64,000 nt of DNA from the NCBI RefSeq assembly GCF_054482595.1, contig NZ_CM137008.1, one strand, 5' to 3'. The notes under the pieces are model-generated. The model was not told the origin of the DNA. It worked only from the letters and a program-made list of their open reading frames with translations, and made no database searches. This document shows, in pieces, positions 51,301 through 59,277 of this stretch (its first letter is position 1; the number at the start of each line of letters is the position of its first letter). The position numbers were made by a program, and so were the translations under genes.

Positions 51301-51384
51301 CACACGTCATTGATTAAGATCACCACGCGTTACCTGGGTGGTCTTAATCTGTTTATCTCTTTTTTTTTTCAAGATATAAATGCA

Positions 51385-53055
51385 ATGGATAATGCAGAAC
51401 TCGCCATTGGTATCGATCTCGGTACTACCAATAGTTTAATTGCCGTCTGGAAAGACGGTGCCGCGCAATTAATTCCAAATAAGTTCGGTGAATATTTAAC
51501 ACCATCCATAATTAGCATGGATGAAAATAATCATATTTTAGTCGGAAAACCGGCTGTATCACGGCGTACTTCGCATCCGGATAAAACGGCAGCGTTATTT
51601 AAACGTGCAATGGGCAGTAATACCAACTGGCAGTTAGGCAGCGACACATTTAACGCGCCAGAACTGTCCTCTTTGGTATTACGCTCATTAAAAGAAGATG
51701 CCGAAGAATTTCTGCAACGTCCGATTAAAGATGTGGTGATCTCTGTTCCGGCTTATTTCAGCGATGAACAACGCAAGCATACCCGTTTAGCAGCGGAGTT
51801 AGCCGGTTTAAATGCGGTACGCTTAATTAATGAACCCACAGCAGCTGCGATGGCGTATGGCCTGCATACCCAACAAAATACCCGTTCGCTGGTGTTTGAT
51901 CTCGGTGGCGGCACGTTTGACGTTACGGTGCTTGAGTACGCCACGCCGGTGATTGAAGTTCACGCCTCCGCTGGCGACAACTTCCTCGGTGGCGAAGATT
52001 TTACCCATATGCTGGTCGATGAGGTTTTAAAACGCGCGGATGTCGCCAGGACCACGCTTAACGAGAGTGAACTGGCAGCCTTGTATGCCTGTGTGGAAGC
52101 GGCAAAATGTAGCAATCAATCGCCAATGCACATTCGCTGGCAGTACCAGGATGAAACGCGGGAATGCGAATTTTACGAGAACGAACTGGAAGATTTGTGG
52201 TTGCCGCTGCTCAATCGCTTGCGAGTGCCGATTGAACAGGCGTTGCGCGATGCGCGTCTGAAGCCGAGTCAAATCGACAGTCTGGTGCTGGTTGGCGGCG
52301 CGTCACAAATGCCGCTGGTGCAGCGAATCGCCGTGCGTCTGTTTGGCAAATTACCGTATCAAAGTTACGATCCGAGCACCATTGTCGCGCTGGGCGCAGC
52401 AATCCAGGCAGCCTGCCGCTTACGCAGTGAAGATATTGAAGAAGTGATCCTCACTGATATTTGCCCTTACTCGTTGGGCGTTGAGGTTAACCGCCAGGGC
52501 GTTTCCGGCATTTTCTCGCCGATTATTGAACGAAACACCACTGTGCCCGTGTCGCGTGTAGAAACTTATTCAACCATGCACCCGGAACAGGATTCAATTA
52601 CGGTTAACGTCTATCAGGGAGAAAACCACAAAGTTAAAAACAACATTCTGGTGGAATCCTTCGATGTGCCGTTGAAGAGAACCGGGGCTTATCAGTCGAT
52701 TGATATTCGCTTTAGTTATGATATCAACGGTTTGCTTGAAGTTGACGTGCTTCTGGAAGACGGCAGCGTTAAGTCCAGAGTGATTAACCACAGCCCGGTA
52801 ACATTGAGCGCGCAGCAGATTGAAGAGAGTCGGACGCGGTTATCCGCATTGAAAATTTATCCGCGCGATATGCTCATCAACCGCACCTTTAAGGCCAAAC
52901 TGGAAGAGTTGTGGGCGCGGGCGCTGGGTGACGAGCGAGAAGAGATTGGCCGGGTGATCACCGATTTTGATGCGGCGCTGCAGTCAAACGATATGGCCCG
53001 CGTCGATGAGGTCAGGCGGCGGGCGAGCGTTTATTTAGCCATTGAGATCCCATAA
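51385..53055 (+). CDS. hscC: Hsp70-family chaperone HscC
   Basis: 556 aa from MDNAELAIGIDLGTTNS (Hsp70 N-terminal signature); ATG at 51385. Confidence 0.93.
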   Translation: MDNAELAIGIDLGTTNSLIAVWKDGAAQLIPNKFGEYLTPSIISMDENNHILVGKPAVSRRTSHPDKTAALFKRAMGSNTNWQLGSDTFNAPELSSLVLRSLKEDAEEFLQRPIKDVVISVPAYFSDEQRKHTRLAAELAGLNAVRLINEPTAAAMAYGLHTQQNTRSLVFDLGGGTFDVTVLEYATPVIEVHASAGDNFLGGEDFTHMLVDEVLKRADVARTTLNESELAALYACVEAAKCSNQSPMHIRWQYQDETRECEFYENELEDLWLPLLNRLRVPIEQALRDARLKPSQIDSLVLVGGASQMPLVQRIAVRLFGKLPYQSYDPSTIVALGAAIQAACRLRSEDIEEVILTDICPYSLGVEVNRQGVSGIFSPIIERNTTVPVSRVETYSTMHPEQDSITVNVYQGENHKVKNNILVESFDVPLKRTGAYQSIDIRFSYDINGLLEVDVLLEDGSVKSRVINHSPVTLSAQQIEESRTRLSALKIYPRDMLINRTFKAKLEELWARALGDEREEIGRVITDFDAALQSNDMARVDEVRRRASVYLAIEIP

Positions 53056-53061
53056 TCACGG

Positions 53062-53096
53062 CTGCCGGATGCGGCGTAAATGCTGCATCCGGCATC
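53062..53096. repeat. REP palindrome between hscC and djlC
   Basis: gccggatgcggcgtaaatgctgcatccggc. Confidence 0.7.
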
Positions 53097-53114
53097 GGCG
53101 CAAAAAACACATCG

Positions 53115-54566
53115 TCAACTAAACAACATCGCGATTTTGCCGAGAGCATAACCTATCACCAGCACCGTTAAGCTGATTTTGATAATGCTGATAATGCTCT
53201 GTGGTTTTTCATCCTCATCATTTTTTTCTTCATGGTTTTCAGGTGTTGGCTCATCGACATCTTCATCCTCCGGCTCGAGTTTTACTTTCGTCAACAGCAT
53301 CCGGGTGATAATGGCCTCTAATGGATGAGCATCTCCTCCTTCCAGCCTTGTATTGAGACGGGCCAGCATCTCTTGTTTCGGAAACGCTTCAAGTACTACC
53401 TGTTCCGCTACCCGATACAAATCCAGTAACGGTGAATCTTCTTCTGTCTCGCTACCGACTCTCGATTTCCACCACGCCCATGCTTTGCGTTTGAAGAATA
53501 ACGACTCAATAAACGATTGACCTAACGGCGATAGTTTTCCGTTATGTAAAATTTCCGCCCATAACAGACGCGTCCGGGCGCTCTCACCAGGAACATATTT
53601 CAACGGTTTACCTTGCGCATCTACCATGCTCCGCGCTTCGATAACCATCACTAATAACGCGAAATAATCCGGGCAATGTTGTGCGCTCCACTGCAACAAC
53701 AAATTATCGGCTTGTGTAGATGGGTAACTTTCCCAGTACGCGCAGAGATCGGCAAGCAGGCTTTCCCCCTCGCCGCAGTACAAACGTTGTGCACACTGGT
53801 AATACCGGGCATCTTCGCTTTCTGGTTTTTCCGTTTGCCACTGTTGGGCAACAGGAATGAGTTCCGCCATACCTGTTTGCACCGAGCTGTACCAGCGCAA
53901 CAGTTTGCGATGCAACTTCGCATCATCAGGAATTAACCACGGACCTGCCATCGCCAAAAACGCAGTGACATAGTCAGGATGGTAACGACAGCAACGTTCC
54001 AGCGCGAAGTAATACTCAACAGTCTGGTTCTGCAACGCAATGGGATATTCCAGAAGGCTAAGGAAATCGAAACAATCACCAGCCTGAATGGCCTCAAGAA
54101 AAGCCTCCCTTTCTTCCTCATCCATTCCTACGCTGTCATTAAACGAATGCCAGTTCAAACGCTCTGCCAGCAAAGAAGCACAATTTAATGAAAGATATCG
54201 CGCTTCTTTAGCGATTGCACACAGCGGCCAGCGTAATTGATCGACATCCTCCATGTTCCAGGTATTTAATTGCTGAATAAATTTCTGCCAGGCGGAAGGC
54301 TGAAAACGATCACTTTCTGAATCCAGTAATGTCCTGAATGCACGTAGTATTTCATGTTCAGCGGCGGCATCTTTTTCTTCATCATCTGCTTCCTCGACAG
54401 GATTTACCGCCAGTCGCAGCGCCTCTTCATAGGCCTGGCGTAATGCTTTAAACCCCTGCGGATCGGTTTCGGGATGACATAACGGTAAGCGAGCAAGATA
54501 AGCCTGGCGGATAATGTCTATTTGCGTCGTGCTTTCAATTTCGAGGATTTGCCAACATGTTTTCAT
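53115..54566 (-). CDS. djlC: J-domain membrane co-chaperone DjlC (YbeV)
   Basis: 483 aa; N-terminal J-domain with HPE variant of the HPD motif ([11 protein letters not shown]), C-terminal transmembrane segment; start overlaps the ybeU stop. Confidence 0.9.
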
Positions 54567-55270
54567 AGGTCGCTCACATCCTTAAGCGTTACCGGGCATT
54601 CAGGCTGGACAGTTAATGGTTGCCAGGGAAGCGTGGCATAGAAACGATCGCTTCCCGCAGCCAGCTCTTCGAACATCCGACTCCCGGCGCTATCGTATTT
54701 GTACAGGGTTAGCGCCTCGCGTGGCGAAGCGTTGTCTTCGCATTGAGAAGATTGCCAGTAGAGACGCCCTAGTGAATAGGCGGAAAAATAGTGCATCCAG
54801 CTGTGATAGTAATGGTGAGCTCGTACATAGACGCGCGATTGCAGCCATAAACTCTCGTCTTCCGTCAGCCACTTGTTGAGCACACCAACCCGTGATAAAA
54901 AACCCATCCGCACATAATCCCAGGCTTTGATTCCCCCTTCCCCACAGCACATAGCGGTTTGGGCAACGAACTGGGTATAAATCAACCCTCTCTCCGAGCC
55001 ACCAGCAATTAATGCTTTCCACTCTTCAGGGGAAGAGCGATGCCATGTCAGATATAAGCCAGCTAAATCATTGGCATGACCATCATCAGTCATCTGATAA
55101 ATAGTCTGAATTAAATCATCACGATTATTTATTCCCCAGGATGATGAGAGATCGAATTCTTTTATCCCGGTATACATTTTTGGCGAGTCATGCGCGGGTT
55201 TGCAACCCTGATTAAGTATTTCCATGGGCGCAGAAAGCGCAAAAAGAAGATATTGTTCTTCCTTATTCAT
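54563..55270 (-). CDS. ybeU: DUF1266 protein YbeU
   Basis: 235 aa, paralog of YbeR; translationally coupled to djlC. Confidence 0.88.
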
Positions 55271-55371
55271 TTGTTAATAATCCCTTAAGTGCATTAACTG
55301 ACTACTTTTTTATTATTGATGAGTATAAACTTGACGCTTTCAAAATAAAAAGAAAATCGAAGCATTCACAC

Positions 55372-55926
55372 ATGAATAAAAAATTAATGTATATATTCGC
55401 AATTTTTATAGTTGCAGCAATTACCTGTATTAGCCAACCCAAGAAAACGACGTTGCGTGATAAAGCCATGGTGAATTATGCCTTTGATTATTTAAGCTCA
55501 CCGGGCAGTCTTCCATTCACCACGGCAGCCACGGAGCTTTCCGCGATTCATGGTCACTCAACGTCGCAATATCGCCTTGGAGAATTTTATCTTCATGGTA
55601 GCGACGGTAAACCACTGGATTATACACAGGCGAGATACTGGTATGAGCAATCAGCGGAACAGGAAAATCCACGCGCGCAAAGTAAACTGGGGTGGATCTA
55701 CCTCAAAGGTCTGGGGGTCAAACCCGACACCCGTAAAGCAATTCTCTGGTATAAGGAAGCAGCTGAACAAGGGTATGCTCATGCTCAATATACTTTAGGT
55801 TTGATCTACAGAAATGGCTCAGGTATTAATGTTAACCATTATGAATCTCAAAAATGGTTAAAACTGGCCGCCAAACAACATTACAAAAATGCGGAAAGAT
55901 TACTTGCCGGGCTTCCCGCACATTAA
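55372..55926 (+). CDS. ybeT: Sel1-repeat protein YbeT
   Basis: 184 aa; N-terminal hydrophobic segment then Sel1-like repeats ([15 protein letters not shown]..., [15 protein letters not shown]...). Confidence 0.88.
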
Positions 55927-55935
55927 CGTCGAATG

Positions 55936-57363
55936 TCACCCGAACAGATGGAGTATTTTCCCTATCAAACCAGCAAAGATAAAAATATAGAAAATAATTT
56001 TAATGATGCCCAGACAGCCTGGCCCACCATCGTCAACGGGCATTGGCTGCGGTTGCGGCTCCGGTTCAACAGTTTGCTTCTCGGTAAAATTCGCCGCCTG
56101 AATTAATAATCGACGAATAATTAATGCTTCCAGTGGACAACGATTTTCTGCATCAAGACGGCTTACGATCGGCATTAATGATTCTTCTGTTGGTTGGCTG
56201 GCCTGCACTAATTGTTTGGCAACTAAATATAATGGCCATAAGGGATGTTCTGTATCACGCGTGAGTGAGATCCGCGGCTTACGTCCTTTGTGCAAAACCA
56301 TCTCGACCAGAGAACGCCCCAGCGCAGAGAGTTTTTCATCACTGAGTATTTCGTATAAATGAAAACGCGTACGAGCGCTGTCACCAGGGACATAAAGTAG
56401 CGGTTTTCCCTGATCGTTAACCAGTTCACGAGCTTCAATCATCATCACCACTAACGGGTAATAATCGACCCGATGCTGACGGCACCATTGCAATATTAAA
56501 GCATCCGCCTGGGTGGAGGGATACTCGCGCCAGTAGTCACAAAGTTCTGCCAGCAAGCTTTCGCCTTCTCCACAATAGACGCGTTGTGCGTATTCATAAT
56601 AACGCGCATCTTCATTATCAGATTCAGCTTCCCGCCACGACCGGGCGTAATCCAGGAGTTCGGGAATTCCCAGGCGACCTGCGCTATACCAGCGGAGTAA
56701 ATTTCCGTGCAGTTTTGCATCATCGGGGATAATCACTGCGCGATGTTGCGCTAAATACAATGTCAGCCATTCTGGATGCGATGACCAAATCCGAGCGAAC
56801 ATTTGGTAAAAATCGATGGTGTCATTTTGCACGGCAACGGGCAGATGCAGAATGGTCTGGAAGTTAAAAACATTCCCCTTCGCAATGGCATATAAAAAGG
56901 ATTCCAGTTCTTCTTCGTCTATTTCCCCGGTATTTTCCTCCTGTAACCACCGCAATCTTTCTGCTAATAACACCACGCACTCGAAGGATAAATGGGCAGT
57001 GTTCATGGCTATTGTGCACAGCGACCAGCGTAATTCATCAATCTCATCCATCGAGCAATAATTTAATTGCTGAATGAATCGCTGCCAGGCGGAGGGCAGA
57101 AAACGTTCACTATCAGAGGCAAGTAACGCACTAAAGGCGAGCAGAATTTCATGTTCTGCTACCTCATATTCTTCTGGTTGCCAAACAGATTTAGCAGGCG
57201 ACTGCGCAATCCGGAGCGCTTCCTCATACGCCTGACGAAGTTGTTTAAAACCCTGCGGATCGGTTTCTGGATGAAAGGACGGTAACAGCGCCAGATAAGC
57301 GCGGCGGATAATATCGACGTCAGTCGTTTCCTCTATGTTGAGGATCTTCCAGCAATTTTTCAT
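55936..57363 (-). CDS. djlB: J-domain membrane co-chaperone DjlB (YbeS)
   Basis: 475 aa, paralog of DjlC ([11 protein letters not shown]); C-terminal transmembrane segment; start overlaps the ybeR stop. Confidence 0.9.
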
Positions 57364-58067
57364 AGGTCGCTCATATCCTTAAGCGTTTCCGGGCATGTGG
57401 GGTAGTCAGCCAGTGGTTGCCAGGGTAAGGTCGCGTAATATGCATCGTCACTGGCAAATAATTGATAAAACATATCATTGCCGGAATCGTCGTATTCTTT
57501 ACGCGCTAAGAATTCACGTAATAAAGGCAGATTATCATCTTCGGGAGACTGCCAATATTGCCGACCAAAGGTATAACCGGCAAAGTATTGCCGCCAGTTA
57601 CTATAATAACGTAGAGCCCGTAGATGAATACGCGACTGGATCCATAGACTTTCTTCTTCACTCAACCAGTTATTAAGTACGCCCATTCGACTTAAAAAAC
57701 CCATCCGGACATAATCCCATGCTTTAATTCCTCCCTCACCACAGCATTCGGCTGTGCTGGCGACAAATTGCGCATAAGCCTGACCTTGCTCATTTAATTC
57801 AGCAAGATAGTCACGCCATTCACATGGAGAATAACGAAACCAGCGGTGATAAAACCCTGCCAACCGCGCGGCATGACCGTTATCGATCATTCGGTGAATT
57901 GTGCGCAGCAGGTCATCACGGTCATCAATTCCCCAGGAGGAAGAAAGGTCAAAAAAGCATGTACCTAAATACATTTTGGGGGATGAATGCGAAGGTAAAC
58001 AGCATTCATTGCGTATTTCCATCGGAGTGGAAAGTGCAAACAATATTTTTTGCGACTCCATGTCCAT
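57360..58067 (-). CDS. ybeR: DUF1266 protein YbeR
   Basis: 235 aa, paralog of YbeU. Confidence 0.88.
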
Positions 58068-58230
58068 ATAATTTATCCTTAAACATTCATTTAATGAATG
58101 TAAACTACATTACGAGGCTCATTTATTTATACTTTTCTGACACAACATAATACGCATAAAATAAGACTTACGCAAAAACGGAACACATAAAAATATAATA
58201 TGCTTTATCTGCAACCATAAGGAAATGATA

Positions 58231-59208
58231 ATGATTTTTACGTCAAGTTGCTGCGATAATTTGTCAATAGATGAGATTATCGAACGTGCTGAACAAGGCG
58301 ATAGTGAGGCTCAATATATTGTTGGGTTTTATTATAATCGCGATAGCGCAATTGACTCTCCGGACGACGAAAAGGCCTTTTACTGGCTGAAGCTGGCCGC
58401 TGAGCAAGGTCATTGTGAAGCACAGTATTCCTTAGGGCAAAAGTATACCGAGGATAAAAGCCGTCATAAAGATAATGAGCAAGCCATCTTCTGGCTGAAA
58501 AAAGCTGCCCTACAAGGCCATACTTTCGCTTCCAACGCCCTTGGCTGGATACTGGATCGTGGAGAAGACCCCAACTATAAAGAAGCGGTTGCCTGGTATC
58601 AGATAGCCGCGGAGAGCGGAATGTCTTATGCGCAAAATAATCTTGGGTGGATGTACAGAAATGGCAACGGAGTCGCACAAGACTATACGCTGGCATTTTT
58701 CTGGTACAAACAAGCTGCATTACAAGGCCATAGTGACGCGCAAAACAATCTGGCCGATCTTTATGAAGACGGAAAAGGCGTTGCTCAAAACGAGACACTC
58801 GCCGCATTCTGGTATTTGAAAAGCGCACAGCAGGGTAATCGGCACGCCCAGTTTCAAATTGCATGGGATTATAACGCTGGCGAAGGGGTGGACCAGGACT
58901 ATAAGCAAGCGATGTACTGGTATCTGAAGGCTGCCGCTCAGGGGAGCGTCGGCGCTTACGTCAACATCGGTTATATGTATAAACACGGACAAGGCGTTGA
59001 GAAAGATTATCAGGCTGCCTTTGAATGGTTTACGAAAGCCGCTGAATGCAATGACGCCACTGCCTGGTATAACCTGGCCATTATGTATCACTACGGAGAA
59101 GGAAGACCTGTCGATCTCCGACAGGCTCTCGACCTGTATCGTAAAGTTCAGTCATCCGGAACCAGAGATGTCAGTCAGGAAATTCGTGAGACTGAAGATT
59201 TACTGTAG
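58231..59208 (+). CDS. ybeQ: Sel1-repeat protein YbeQ
   Basis: 325 aa from the second ATG (MIFTSSCC...), which has better spacing to aagga; at least seven Sel1-like repeats. Confidence 0.88.
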   Translation: MIFTSSCCDNLSIDEIIERAEQGDSEAQYIVGFYYNRDSAIDSPDDEKAFYWLKLAAEQGHCEAQYSLGQKYTEDKSRHKDNEQAIFWLKKAALQGHTFASNALGWILDRGEDPNYKEAVAWYQIAAESGMSYAQNNLGWMYRNGNGVAQDYTLAFFWYKQAALQGHSDAQNNLADLYEDGKGVAQNETLAAFWYLKSAQQGNRHAQFQIAWDYNAGEGVDQDYKQAMYWYLKAAAQGSVGAYVNIGYMYKHGQGVEKDYQAAFEWFTKAAECNDATAWYNLAIMYHYGEGRPVDLRQALDLYRKVQSSGTRDVSQEIRETEDLL

Positions 59209-59277
59209 AGATAAAAACAAGGGCCGGGGAATTTCATTCGGCCCATATTCTCTTTATTGCTGTGCGAAATCAGACTA

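What the first reader, a model, noticed from the sequence alone, without database searches (positions are those of the whole stretch)
53115..59208. Tandemly duplicated three-gene modules (DUF1266, J-domain membrane protein, Sel1-repeat protein) next to hscC
Two paralogous modules follow hscC: ybeU-djlC with divergent ybeT, and ybeR-djlB with divergent ybeQ. In both, the DUF1266 gene overlaps the djl start by 4 nt, and the junction sequence is nearly identical at nucleotide level (ttttcataggtcgctcaYatccttaagcgttWccgggcat). The J-domains carry HPE rather than the canonical HPD. The function of the DUF1266 and Sel1 partners is unknown; the architecture resembles a specialised chaperone or substrate-targeting system.
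Basis: partly seen in the sequence, partly recalled or inferred. Interest (0 to 1): 0.55.

Follow-up and report, generated by a model that had tools for sequence, protein, structure and literature searches.

The report
HscC chaperone islet with DUF1266 partners
This is the already annotated E. coli hscC–djlC–djlB chaperone locus, and the one fresh point is that the uncharacterised DUF1266 proteins (YbeU/YbeR) are always encoded next to this Hsp70 and its J-protein, in distant bacteria too, which makes them a testable clue to what HscC does.

Summary
The sequence observations are correct. The window carries hscC, djlC, ybeU, ybeT, djlB, ybeR and ybeQ. Both 4-nt ATGA overlaps, the near-identical 40-nt junction and HPE in both J-domains are present.

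The duplicated unit is the two-gene DUF1266–djl bicistron, not a three-gene module:
- YbeT and YbeQ share only generic Sel1 similarity.
- The two upstream regions are unrelated.
- Salmonella has the duplication without ybeT.

HscC/DjlC cooperation, DjlC tail-anchoring and the HPE variant are all published, so the locus is already known.

What my survey adds:
- About 57 gammaproteobacterial loci, one Paenibacillus locus and five of five sampled distant DUF1266 proteins have the same trio: an HscC-type Hsp70, a Djl-type J-protein (HPE where read; NPE in two loci) and DUF1266.
- Where the DNA was read, the DUF1266 and djl genes overlap by 1–17 nt.
- One protein fuses J(HPE), TPR and DUF1266 in a single chain.
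- Outside Enterobacteriaceae Djl is 655–950 aa long. The non-proteobacterial forms carry TPR repeats.
- Separate Sel1 genes occur only in Escherichia and Salmonella.

DUF1266 is a confidently modelled all-alpha fold with no solved relative.

In E. coli the whole 8-kb block is dispensable: full in 68% of complete genomes, one module deleted in about 14%, absent in 18%.

Best reading: Djl·DUF1266 is a two-subunit co-chaperone for HscC. The biochemical role of DUF1266 remains inferred.

The parts
51301..59277 (.). Whole dispensable block between the rihA stop and the ybeL stop (hscC to ybeQ).
   Evidence: 965 of 5426 complete E. coli genomes have rihA and ybeL separated by only a 39-bp hairpin sequence instead of this block.
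51385..53055 (+). hscC, a specialised Hsp70 (556 aa).
   Evidence: RefSeq annotation. NCBIfam Hsp70 hits fall below the DnaK and HscA cut-offs. ATPase stimulation by DjlC is from the literature.
53056..53114 (.). 59-bp convergent spacer between hscC and djlC with a GC-rich inverted repeat (GCCGGATGCGGC...GCATCCGGC).
   Evidence: Read directly from the sequence. The consensus terminator scan did not call it.
53115..54566 (-). djlC, a tail-anchored J-protein (483 aa): J-domain, TPR-like helical solenoid, disordered linker, C-terminal TM helix.
54402..54566 (-). DjlC J-domain. HPE codons lie at 54468-54476.
53121..53201 (-). DjlC C-terminal transmembrane helix.
   Evidence: Kyte-Doolittle 2.12. 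AF2 helix 456-482. Tail-anchoring was shown experimentally (Peschke 2018, cited).
54563..55270 (-). ybeU, a DUF1266 protein (235 aa).
   Evidence: Pfam PF06889, E 3.6e-45. AF2 model pLDDT 93, pTM 0.91, all-alpha.
54560..54599 (-). ybeU/djlC junction: ATGA overlap at 54563-54566 with an AAGGA motif 12 nt upstream of the djlC ATG.
55372..55926 (+). ybeT, a small Sel1-repeat protein (184 aa) with a hydrophobic N-terminus. It lies between the two modules and is found only in Escherichia.
   Evidence: It is absent from the Salmonella locus.
55936..57363 (-). djlB, paralogue of djlC (475 aa). HPE codons at 57265-57273; TM helix at 55945-56019.
57360..58067 (-). ybeR, a DUF1266 paralogue of ybeU (235 aa).
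57357..57396 (-). ybeR/djlB junction: ATGA overlap at 57360-57363, 38 of 40 nt identical to the ybeU/djlC junction.
   Evidence: A natural ybeR::djlC hybrid recombined in this region.
58225..59208 (+). ybeQ, a cytoplasmic protein with 8 Sel1 repeats (327 aa; RefSeq start at 58231).
   Evidence: Pfam Sel1 ×8. The Salmonella orthologue is 50% identical and sits at the same position.

Best explanation
**What it is.** The region is the E. coli HscC chaperone islet. It holds the specialised Hsp70 HscC plus two diverged tandem copies of a bicistron. Each bicistron encodes a DUF1266 protein (YbeU, YbeR) and, translationally coupled to it, an HscC-specific J-protein (DjlC, DjlB). The J-proteins are tail-anchored in the membrane and carry HPE.

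**Shown here.** DUF1266 is a conserved third component of HscC/Djl systems across Gammaproteobacteria, a Paenibacillus and other distant lineages. The duplicated unit is two genes. The Sel1 genes are late additions found only in Escherichia and Salmonella.

**Inferred mechanism.**
- The ATGA overlap yields DUF1266 and Djl in roughly equal amounts, and they form one co-chaperone.
- DUF1266 docks on the TPR-like solenoid of Djl and supplies the cargo- or ligand-recognition surface.
- The HPE J-domain recruits ATP-bound HscC and triggers hydrolysis, so that HscC clamps whatever DUF1266 holds.
- In Proteobacteria this happens at the cytoplasmic face of the inner membrane, through a C-terminal TM helix or DUF805 domain. 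The four non-proteobacterial-type versions checked (L072, L076, L080, L081) have no TM segment and look soluble.
- The two E. coli modules would then be two specificities feeding one Hsp70.
- YbeQ may supply in trans the TPR surface that the shortened enterobacterial Djl lost. This last step is the most speculative.
For: **Identity of the locus:**

**Published basis:** DjlC, but not DnaJ, CbpA or HscB, stimulates the HscC ATPase. Deleting hscC, or djlB and djlC together, gives Cd2+ sensitivity. DjlC is tail-anchored (review PMC8215388). HPE is the one tolerated HPD variant and is found in DjlB and DjlC.

**Conserved trio:**
- 57 loci from Escherichia, Klebsiella, Rahnella, Erwinia, Pectobacterium, Limnobaculum, Gilliamella, Pseudomonas, Marinobacter and Bowmanella have DUF1266 followed by Djl.
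- hscC follows wherever the contig extends far enough: convergent in most, on the same strand in Marinobacter.
- The DUF1266 and djl reading frames overlap by a few nucleotides in these loci (most often the ATGA arrangement), and the Djl proteins carry HPE, with YPE in one.

**Other phyla, different gene order:**
- Paenibacillus aceti has hscC, then a J(HPE)-TPR protein of 872 aa, then DUF1266, all overlapping.
- Five of five sampled distant stand-alone DUF1266 proteins sit in Hsp70 / J-DjlB_C_2nd(-TPR) / DUF1266 clusters.

**Fusion:** P0257 is J(HPE) + TPR + DUF1266 in one chain.

**Co-duplication:** Salmonella has both DUF1266-djl pairs in the same order.

**Structure:** DjlC is a J-domain plus a TPR-like solenoid plus a TM helix.

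**Co-inheritance in E. coli:** the block is full in 3691 genomes and empty in 965 of 5426.
Against: - No interaction was measured or modelled here. The structure tool gives no interface read-out and both jobs went on the single proteins.
- The same DUF1266 residues (W45, H65, W117, D118, R121, E139, W158, G168, W172) are conserved in many secreted or lipoprotein members. These have no Hsp70 nearby. The domain therefore has an intrinsic function, and it could be a client or effector rather than an adaptor.
- I surveyed only from the DUF1266 side. Djl/HscC pairs without DUF1266 may exist.
- Two distant loci have NPE instead of HPE, so ATPase stimulation may not be universal.
- The block is absent from 18% of E. 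coli and is H-NS-silenced in K-12. HscC and the Djl proteins were below proteomic detection. Any role is therefore conditional.
- The YbeQ in-trans idea rests only on co-location in two genera.
Confidence: 0.55

Rival explanations
1. DUF1266 is the dedicated client or effector of the system, as IscU is for HscB/HscA. Djl binds it through its helical domain and hands it to HscC. HscC then remodels or releases it, so DUF1266's own ligand-binding or enzymatic activity is what is being controlled.
For: - The invariant polar and aromatic residues of DUF1266 are also kept in exported family members that cannot meet an Hsp70. This points to an autonomous activity.
- The operon logic matches the iscU-hscB-hscA arrangement, known from the literature summarised.
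- The conserved trio fits this reading as well as the adaptor reading.
Against: - The J-TPR-DUF1266 single-chain fusion is more typical of two parts of one co-chaperone than of a client fused to its own J-protein.
- No HscC-binding motif was identified.
- No fold relative hints at an activity.
Confidence: 0.25
2. DUF1266 is a CbpM-like modulator. It binds the Djl J-domain or solenoid and gates access of HscC, keeping the system off until a signal arrives.
For: - There is a precedent: the specific, co-transcribed inhibitor CbpM acts on the J-protein CbpA in E. coli.
- Tight translational coupling fits stoichiometric control.
Against: - CbpM is encoded downstream of its J-protein, whereas DUF1266 lies upstream in Proteobacteria and downstream elsewhere.
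- The DUF1266 domain also occurs widely without any J-protein, which is unexpected for a dedicated J-domain inhibitor.
- Pfam shows nothing but DUF1266 in these proteins.
Confidence: 0.1
3. The block is a horizontally mobile accessory system, such as an anti-phage or stress-defence module, rather than a housekeeping chaperone.
For: - Presence/absence polymorphism with a clean empty site.
- GC content of 43-49% against 51% for the window.
- H-NS-repressed and SlyA-induced in K-12.
- ybeT was a top TraDIS hit under phage challenge.
- A BrxR/WYL regulator lies 1.3 kb upstream of the trio in one distant locus, and there is a weak JetD_C hit near another.
Against: - No PADLOC family matches any of the seven proteins beyond noise.
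- The ybeT knockout behaved like wild type with the phage.
- The locus sits at the same chromosomal site in Escherichia species, Salmonella and Klebsiella spallanzanii, so it is ancestral and was lost, not recently gained.
- Flanking genes in the other genera I read are ordinary.
- There are no mobility genes apart from secondary IS insertions.
Confidence: 0.05

Closest known systems
E. coli HscC/DjlC (Hsc62/Hsc56), the 'third Hsp70 system', with DjlB as presumed second J-protein
   Same: It is this very locus. It has the specialised Hsp70, the exclusive HPE J-proteins and the tail anchor.
   Different: In the literature I could search, only one paper mentions DUF1266. No paper treats YbeU/YbeR or YbeT/YbeQ as functional parts of the system.
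HscA-HscB-IscU (Fe-S cluster Hsp70 system)
   Same: A specialised Hsp70 has an exclusive class C J-protein. The non-J helical domain of that J-protein binds one dedicated small partner, and all three are co-encoded.
   Different: There are no Fe-S genes here. The J-motif is HPE and the J-protein is membrane-anchored. The partner is an all-alpha protein with no solved relative, and IscU did not appear among the fold matches. The trio is dispensable in E. coli.
CbpA-CbpM
   Same: A J-protein is co-transcribed with a specific small partner protein.
   Different: CbpA works with DnaK. Pfam finds only DUF1266 in YbeU. Gene order differs. The DUF1266 partnership spans phyla, whereas CbpM is conserved only in gammaproteobacteria.
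Eukaryotic TPR-containing J-proteins (DNAJC3/P58IPK, DNAJC7)
   Different: Here the J-domain is N-terminal and carries HPE, and the partner Hsp70 is HscC. The resemblance is at the fold-class level only.
Membrane-tethered J-proteins that localise an Hsp70 (Tim14/Pam18 with Tim16/Pam16; bacterial DjlA)
   Different: DUF1266 is not J-like. No translocon is associated. The anchor is C-terminal.

Membership tests
J-domain proteins (DjlB, DjlC) | J-domain fold: a helix II - loop - helix III hairpin. | tested here: met
J-domain proteins (DjlB, DjlC) | Canonical HPD tripeptide in the loop. | tested here: not met
   Both proteins have HPE, as do the orthologues read. The literature treats HPE as the one functional variant. 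Pfam DnaJ scores only E 0.036 for DjlC.
J-domain proteins (DjlB, DjlC) | Stimulates the ATPase of a partner Hsp70. | not testable with these tools
   Reported for DjlC with HscC (Kluck 2002, via review). For DjlB it is assumed, not shown.
Hsp70, HscC subfamily | Full-length Hsp70 architecture that is distinct from DnaK and HscA. | tested here: met
   NCBIfam DnaK and HscA models hit at E 1e-113 to 1e-115, but with about 380 bits against cut-offs of 620-820. RefSeq names it HscC.
DUF1266 (PF06889) | Match to the Pfam profile over its full length. | tested here: met
   YbeU matches at E 3.6e-45 over model positions 2-175 of 175. All 92 aligned relatives match.
Sel1-repeat proteins (YbeT, YbeQ) | Tandem Sel1 repeats (PF08238). 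| tested here: met
   YbeQ has 8 repeats at E ≤ 4e-4. PF08238 is recorded on the YbeT cluster.
Tail-anchored inner-membrane proteins | A single TM helix at the extreme C-terminus and no signal peptide. | tested here: met
   Kyte-Doolittle maxima of 2.12 at residue 458 (DjlC) and 2.39 at residue 450 (DjlB). AF2 helix at 456-482. Membrane insertion is published for DjlC.
   Two of the three genes are paralogous. The Sel1 genes share only repeat-level similarity. The intergenic regions are unrelated. Salmonella has the duplication without ybeT.
Known anti-phage defence systems (PADLOC) | Profile match of any component protein. | tested here: not met
   There are no hits apart from two E > 5e-4 partial matches of the Sel1 proteins to a PtuA model.

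The most novel reading that the evidence does not exclude
HscC, an HPE-type Djl J-protein and DUF1266 form an ancient three-component Hsp70 machine shared by Proteobacteria, a Paenibacillus (Bacillota) and other distant lineages. DUF1266, an unsolved all-alpha fold with an invariant W/H/D/R/E site, is the missing specificity element or dedicated client that explains what HscC is for. The E. coli duplication would then provide two such specificities at the inner membrane.
Probability: 0.5. Interest if true: 0.55.

Novelty: already known. Interest (0 to 1): 0.36.

Why it matters
HscC is the one E. coli Hsp70 with no known client or physiological role. Only Cd2+ and UV sensitivity phenotypes are on record.

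A partner protein that is co-encoded with the HscC-specific J-protein in all 57 gammaproteobacterial loci, the Paenibacillus locus and the five distant loci I examined, overlaps its reading frame wherever the DNA was read, and is sometimes fused to it gives a concrete first experiment. That experiment is to test the YbeU-DjlC and YbeR-DjlB interactions and their effect on HscC, which is more direct than open-ended client screens.

The survey also corrects the picture of the locus. The repeat unit is two genes, and the Sel1 genes are peripheral.

Natural E. coli variants are ready-made genetic material for such tests: genomes with the block full, with one module, with the hybrid module, or empty.

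Tried and rejected
- **PADLOC and NCBIfam scans of all seven proteins.** Nothing specific for Djl or DUF1266.
- **Fold searches of the YbeU model.**
  - Foldseek against AFDB50 returned only DUF1266 proteins.
  - No functional lead came from the fold.
- **First genome-wide scan.** It was repeated with 8 sequences.
- **Hsp70 genes near DUF1266 in Chitinophaga.** I first took these as support. They turned out to be a canonical DnaK and a lipoprotein-type DUF1266 4 kb apart, so I rejected them as coincidence.
- **Search for similarity between the two divergent promoter regions.** None above shuffles.
- **Promoter and terminator consensus scan of the region.** Fewer sites than in shuffles, so uninformative.
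- **Literature.**
  - Barriot et al. 2020 is not held.
  - A search on 'HscC' alone was swamped by hypopharyngeal carcinoma papers.
  - No paper links HscC to phage defence.
- **Phage lead for ybeT.** The TraDIS hit was not reproduced by the knockout in the source paper.
- **Fused YbeU-linker-DjlC structure job.** I considered it and did not run it, because the tool reports no interface or PAE. Both jobs went on the separate proteins instead.


Full report
**1. What is in the window.**

ORF listing and translation give seven genes:

| Gene | Coordinates | Strand |
|---|---|---|
| hscC | 51385-53055 | + |
| djlC | 53115-54566 | - |
| ybeU | 54563-55270 | - |
| ybeT | 55372-55926 | + |
| djlB | 55936-57363 | - |
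| ybeR | 57360-58067 | - |
| ybeQ | 58225-59208 | + |

- The stretch is 100% identical to E. coli O157:H16 strain Santai. It is about 97.6% identical to K-12. RefSeq gives exactly these names, and the flanks are rihA and ybeL-leuS.
  - ATGA overlaps lie at 54563-54566 and 57360-57363.
  - The 40-nt motif occurs exactly twice, at 54560-54599 and 57357-57396.
  - HPE lies at residues 31-33 of both Djl proteins.

**2. How far the duplication goes.**

- YbeU and YbeR are 59.6% identical. DjlC and DjlB are 50.3% identical over their full length.
- The Sel1 genes do not behave as a duplicated third member:
  - YbeT (184 aa) and YbeQ (327 aa, eight Sel1 repeats) align at 32% over repeats only.
  - YbeT has a hydrophobic N-terminus (Kyte-Doolittle 2.0). 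YbeQ has none.
  - Other Sel1 proteins in the YbeT search score 34-43%, so YbeQ is not a closer relative than they are. Full-length YbeT relatives in that search carry only Escherichia names or come from unnamed metagenome contigs.
  - The two divergent upstream regions are no more alike than shuffled sequence.
- Salmonella is decisive. Between ybeL and rihA it has:
  - a ybeQ-like gene (50% identity);
  - then DUF1266, djl, DUF1266, djl back to back, with no ybeT;
  - then a convergent hscC.
- The repeat unit is therefore the DUF1266-djl bicistron, and the duplication predates the Escherichia/Salmonella split.
- Three of four cross-species comparisons favour orthology: YbeU-SalDUF2 63% against 60%, YbeR-SalDUF1 66% against 60%, and DjlC-SalDjl2 57% against 50%.
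- DjlB is the exception, at 46-47% to SalDjl1 against 50% to DjlC. Faster divergence or partial gene conversion cannot be excluded.

**3. The junction.**

- Overall the paralogues use the same codon for the same amino acid 44% of the time.
- In the last ten codons of ybeU/ybeR this is 8 of 8. That is about 0.001 for this window taken alone, and weaker once one allows for the ~50 windows examined.
- The conserved stretch holds AAGGA 12 nt upstream of the djl ATG, plus the ATGA stop-start. It fits a constraint on translational coupling, or a short gene-conversion tract.
- It is also a recombination substrate. One natural E. coli (L003) carries a ybeR::djlC hybrid module whose crossover lies in this junction and J-domain region. 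That strain has lost ybeU, ybeT and djlB.

**4. What is already known.**

- The review PMC8215388 states the following:
  - DjlB is assumed to work with HscC as well.
  - DjlC is inserted in the plasma membrane as a tail-anchored protein.
  - ΔhscC and ΔdjlB ΔdjlC strains are Cd2+-sensitive.
  - All three proteins are below proteomic detection.
- HPE in DjlB and DjlC is explicitly discussed in PMC10410713 and PMC13254874.
- ybeT and ybeU-djlC are H-NS-repressed and SlyA-induced.
- By contrast, DUF1266 appears in a single paper of the searchable library.
- No paper treats ybeU, ybeR, ybeT or ybeQ functionally.

**5. The DUF1266 partnership is the real regularity.**

- A direct search of YbeU against 1.84 billion representative proteins finds only 361 relatives.
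- A scan of 100,044 species genomes with a YbeU-like alignment gave 67 loci.
- In the 57 gammaproteobacterial loci that hold both genes, the order is DUF1266 then djl. These come from Escherichia species, Klebsiella spallanzanii, Rahnella, Erwinia, Pectobacterium, Limnobaculum, Gilliamella, Pseudomonas, Marinobacter and Bowmanella.
- In those loci the two reading frames overlap by a few nucleotides, most often in the ATGA arrangement.
- hscC follows wherever the contig is long enough. It is convergent in most and on the same strand in Marinobacter.
- The Djl proteins whose start could be read have HPE. One Escherichia has YPE.
- Outside Enterobacteriaceae the gammaproteobacterial Djl is about 890 aa. 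It has a J-domain, a long helical region and a C-terminal DUF805 membrane domain.
- The 472-490-aa single-TM form is an enterobacterial shortening.
- tblastn found no separate Sel1 gene outside Escherichia, and the Salmonella locus added only ybeQ.

**6. Beyond Proteobacteria.**

- Paenibacillus aceti encodes an HscC-like Hsp70, then a J(HPE)-TPR protein of 872 aa, then DUF1266. Successive genes overlap by 1 and 8 nt.
- I then sampled five distant stand-alone cytoplasmic DUF1266 representatives (27-32% identity to YbeU). All five sit in the same trio:
  - P0170 has the proteobacterial order.
  - P0213, P0201, P0221 and P0241 have the order Hsp70, then J/DjlB_C_2nd/TPR, then DUF1266.
- HPE is present in three of the Djl proteins I read. 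Two have NPE.
- The four non-proteobacterial-type Djl proteins checked (L072, L076, L080, L081) have no TM segment.
- One protein, P0257, fuses J(HPE), TPR and DUF1266 in a single 497-aa chain. P0235 and P0254 are TPR-DUF1266 fusions.
- TPR-type repeats therefore do belong to this system, but normally inside Djl.

**7. The DUF1266 family is wider than the trio.**

- Many members have signal peptides or lipoboxes, or are fused to Cu_amine_oxidN1, SLH, LRR or peptidase domains.
- The Chitinophaga examples are lipoproteins that happen to lie 4 kb from a canonical dnaK.
- The same residues are conserved throughout: R121 and G168 are invariant, and W45, H65, W117, D118, E139, W158 and W172 are at least 90% conserved.
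- This argues that the domain has its own binding or catalytic site.

**8. Structures.**

- YbeU models confidently (pLDDT 93, pTM 0.91) as a 12-helix all-alpha protein. Model numbering is one less than protein numbering, because my reference trimmed the start codon.
- DjlC (pLDDT 85) has four parts:
  - a disordered segment at 433-454;
  - a TM helix at 456-482.

**9. Population picture in E. coli (5426 complete genomes).**

| State of the block | Genomes |
|---|---|
| Whole block present | 3691 |
| Partial match; sampled examples show one 2807-bp deletion (window 56064-58870) removing most of djlB, all of ybeR and the 5' part of ybeQ | about 757 |
| Clean empty site: rihA and ybeL separated by a 39-bp hairpin sequence | 965 |

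- The same site is occupied in other Escherichia species, Salmonella and K. spallanzanii, so the block is ancestral and has been lost repeatedly.
- It is therefore dispensable. Its GC content is 43-49% against 51% for the window.
- No PADLOC defence profile matches any of the proteins.

**10. Interpretation.**

Shown:
- The locus is the known HscC system.
- The duplicated unit is two genes.
- DUF1266 is a conserved, overlapping and occasionally fused partner of HscC-specific J-proteins across phyla.
- The Sel1 genes are peripheral.

Inferred:
- Djl and DUF1266 form one co-chaperone. DUF1266 provides the recognition surface on the Djl solenoid, and the HPE J-domain loads HscC.
- This happens at the inner membrane in Proteobacteria.

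The main rival is that DUF1266 is the dedicated client, as IscU is for HscB/HscA. The conserved site in exported family members keeps that reading alive. A CbpM-like gate and a defence role are less likely.

None of these was tested physically here. The survey also ran only from the DUF1266 side.

**11. Verdict.**

- The finding describes an annotated, partly characterised locus, and its headline features (HscC link, J-proteins, HPE) are published. I therefore rate it 'already known'.
- Its residual value is a specific, cheaply testable hypothesis about the orphan Hsp70 HscC.

Noticed in passing
window 51301-59277; L004:2101-2139: The whole hscC-ybeQ block is a presence/absence polymorphism. 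965 of 5426 complete E. coli genomes have only a 39-bp hairpin sequence (CAACTCGCCGGATGACATTACGTCATCCGGCACCATTCA) between rihA and ybeL. No direct repeats mark the boundaries.
   Followed up: yes
window 56064-58870; L002: Several complete E. coli genomes share a 2807-bp deletion; about 757 genomes have only a partial match, but how many of them carry this deletion was not counted. It removes most of djlB, all of ybeR and the 5' part of ybeQ. The ybeU-djlC-hscC module and ybeT stay intact.
   Followed up: partly
L003:4820-6084 (NZ_AP038238): A natural ybeR::djlC hybrid module was made by unequal recombination between the paralogues in the conserved junction and J-domain region. ybeU, ybeT and djlB are lost, djlC is frameshifted and an IS1 lies next to ybeQ.
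   Followed up: partly
L006:3648-5986 (Escherichia sp. MOD1-EC7003): A third Djl-like gene (29% identity to DjlC, C-terminal TM) is followed by a 321-aa protein with a signal peptide. They are inserted between ybeL and ybeQ, and no DUF1266 gene was detected beside them.
   Followed up: no
L073:15082-16320 (Salmonella): A 412-aa gene with no Pfam hit sits between hscC and rihA in Salmonella, on the same strand as hscC. It has no counterpart in the E. coli window.
   Followed up: no
L080:3808-5994 and L081:4037-6004; L008:10705-12153: The J-motif drifts further in some lineages. Two distant Djl proteins that still sit between an Hsp70 and DUF1266 have NPE instead of HPE. One Escherichia sp. DjlC has YPE.
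   Followed up: no
C-termini of DUF1266 proteins in L011-L065; window 54566-54600: Proteobacterial Djl-linked DUF1266 proteins carry a conserved C-terminal tail after the core LPW motif: [KR]P-x-SL-x-E-x-DWS, or [11 protein letters not shown] in enterics. The Firmicute-type and exported members lack it. It could be a docking peptide, and it coincides with the translational-coupling region.
   Followed up: partly
L081:161-1021; contig of P0201: A BrxR/WYL-type regulator lies 1.3 kb upstream of one distant Hsp70-Djl-DUF1266 trio. A weak JetD_C hit lies 3 kb downstream of another. This is a faint defence-island flavour, not seen around the gammaproteobacterial loci I read.
   Followed up: no
L010:10001-10387; AFDB entry A0A077ZGN2: There is probable E. 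coli contamination in public data. One case is a 98%-identical ybeU fragment at the end of a 'Paenibacillus sp. USDA918EY' contig. The other is a 95%-identical match inside a 932-aa 'Trichuris trichiura DnaJ-like' protein.
   Followed up: no
window 51310-51384: The hscC reading frame is open from a TTG at 51310, which would give 581 aa. RefSeq and the orthologue alignments use the ATG at 51385, giving 556 aa starting MDNAELAIGIDLGTTNS.
   Followed up: partly
window 53056-53114: The 59-bp convergent spacer between hscC and djlC holds a GC-rich inverted repeat (GCCGGATGCGGC...GCATCCGGC). It resembles the palindrome at the empty site and looks REP-like. The terminator scan did not call it.
   Followed up: no
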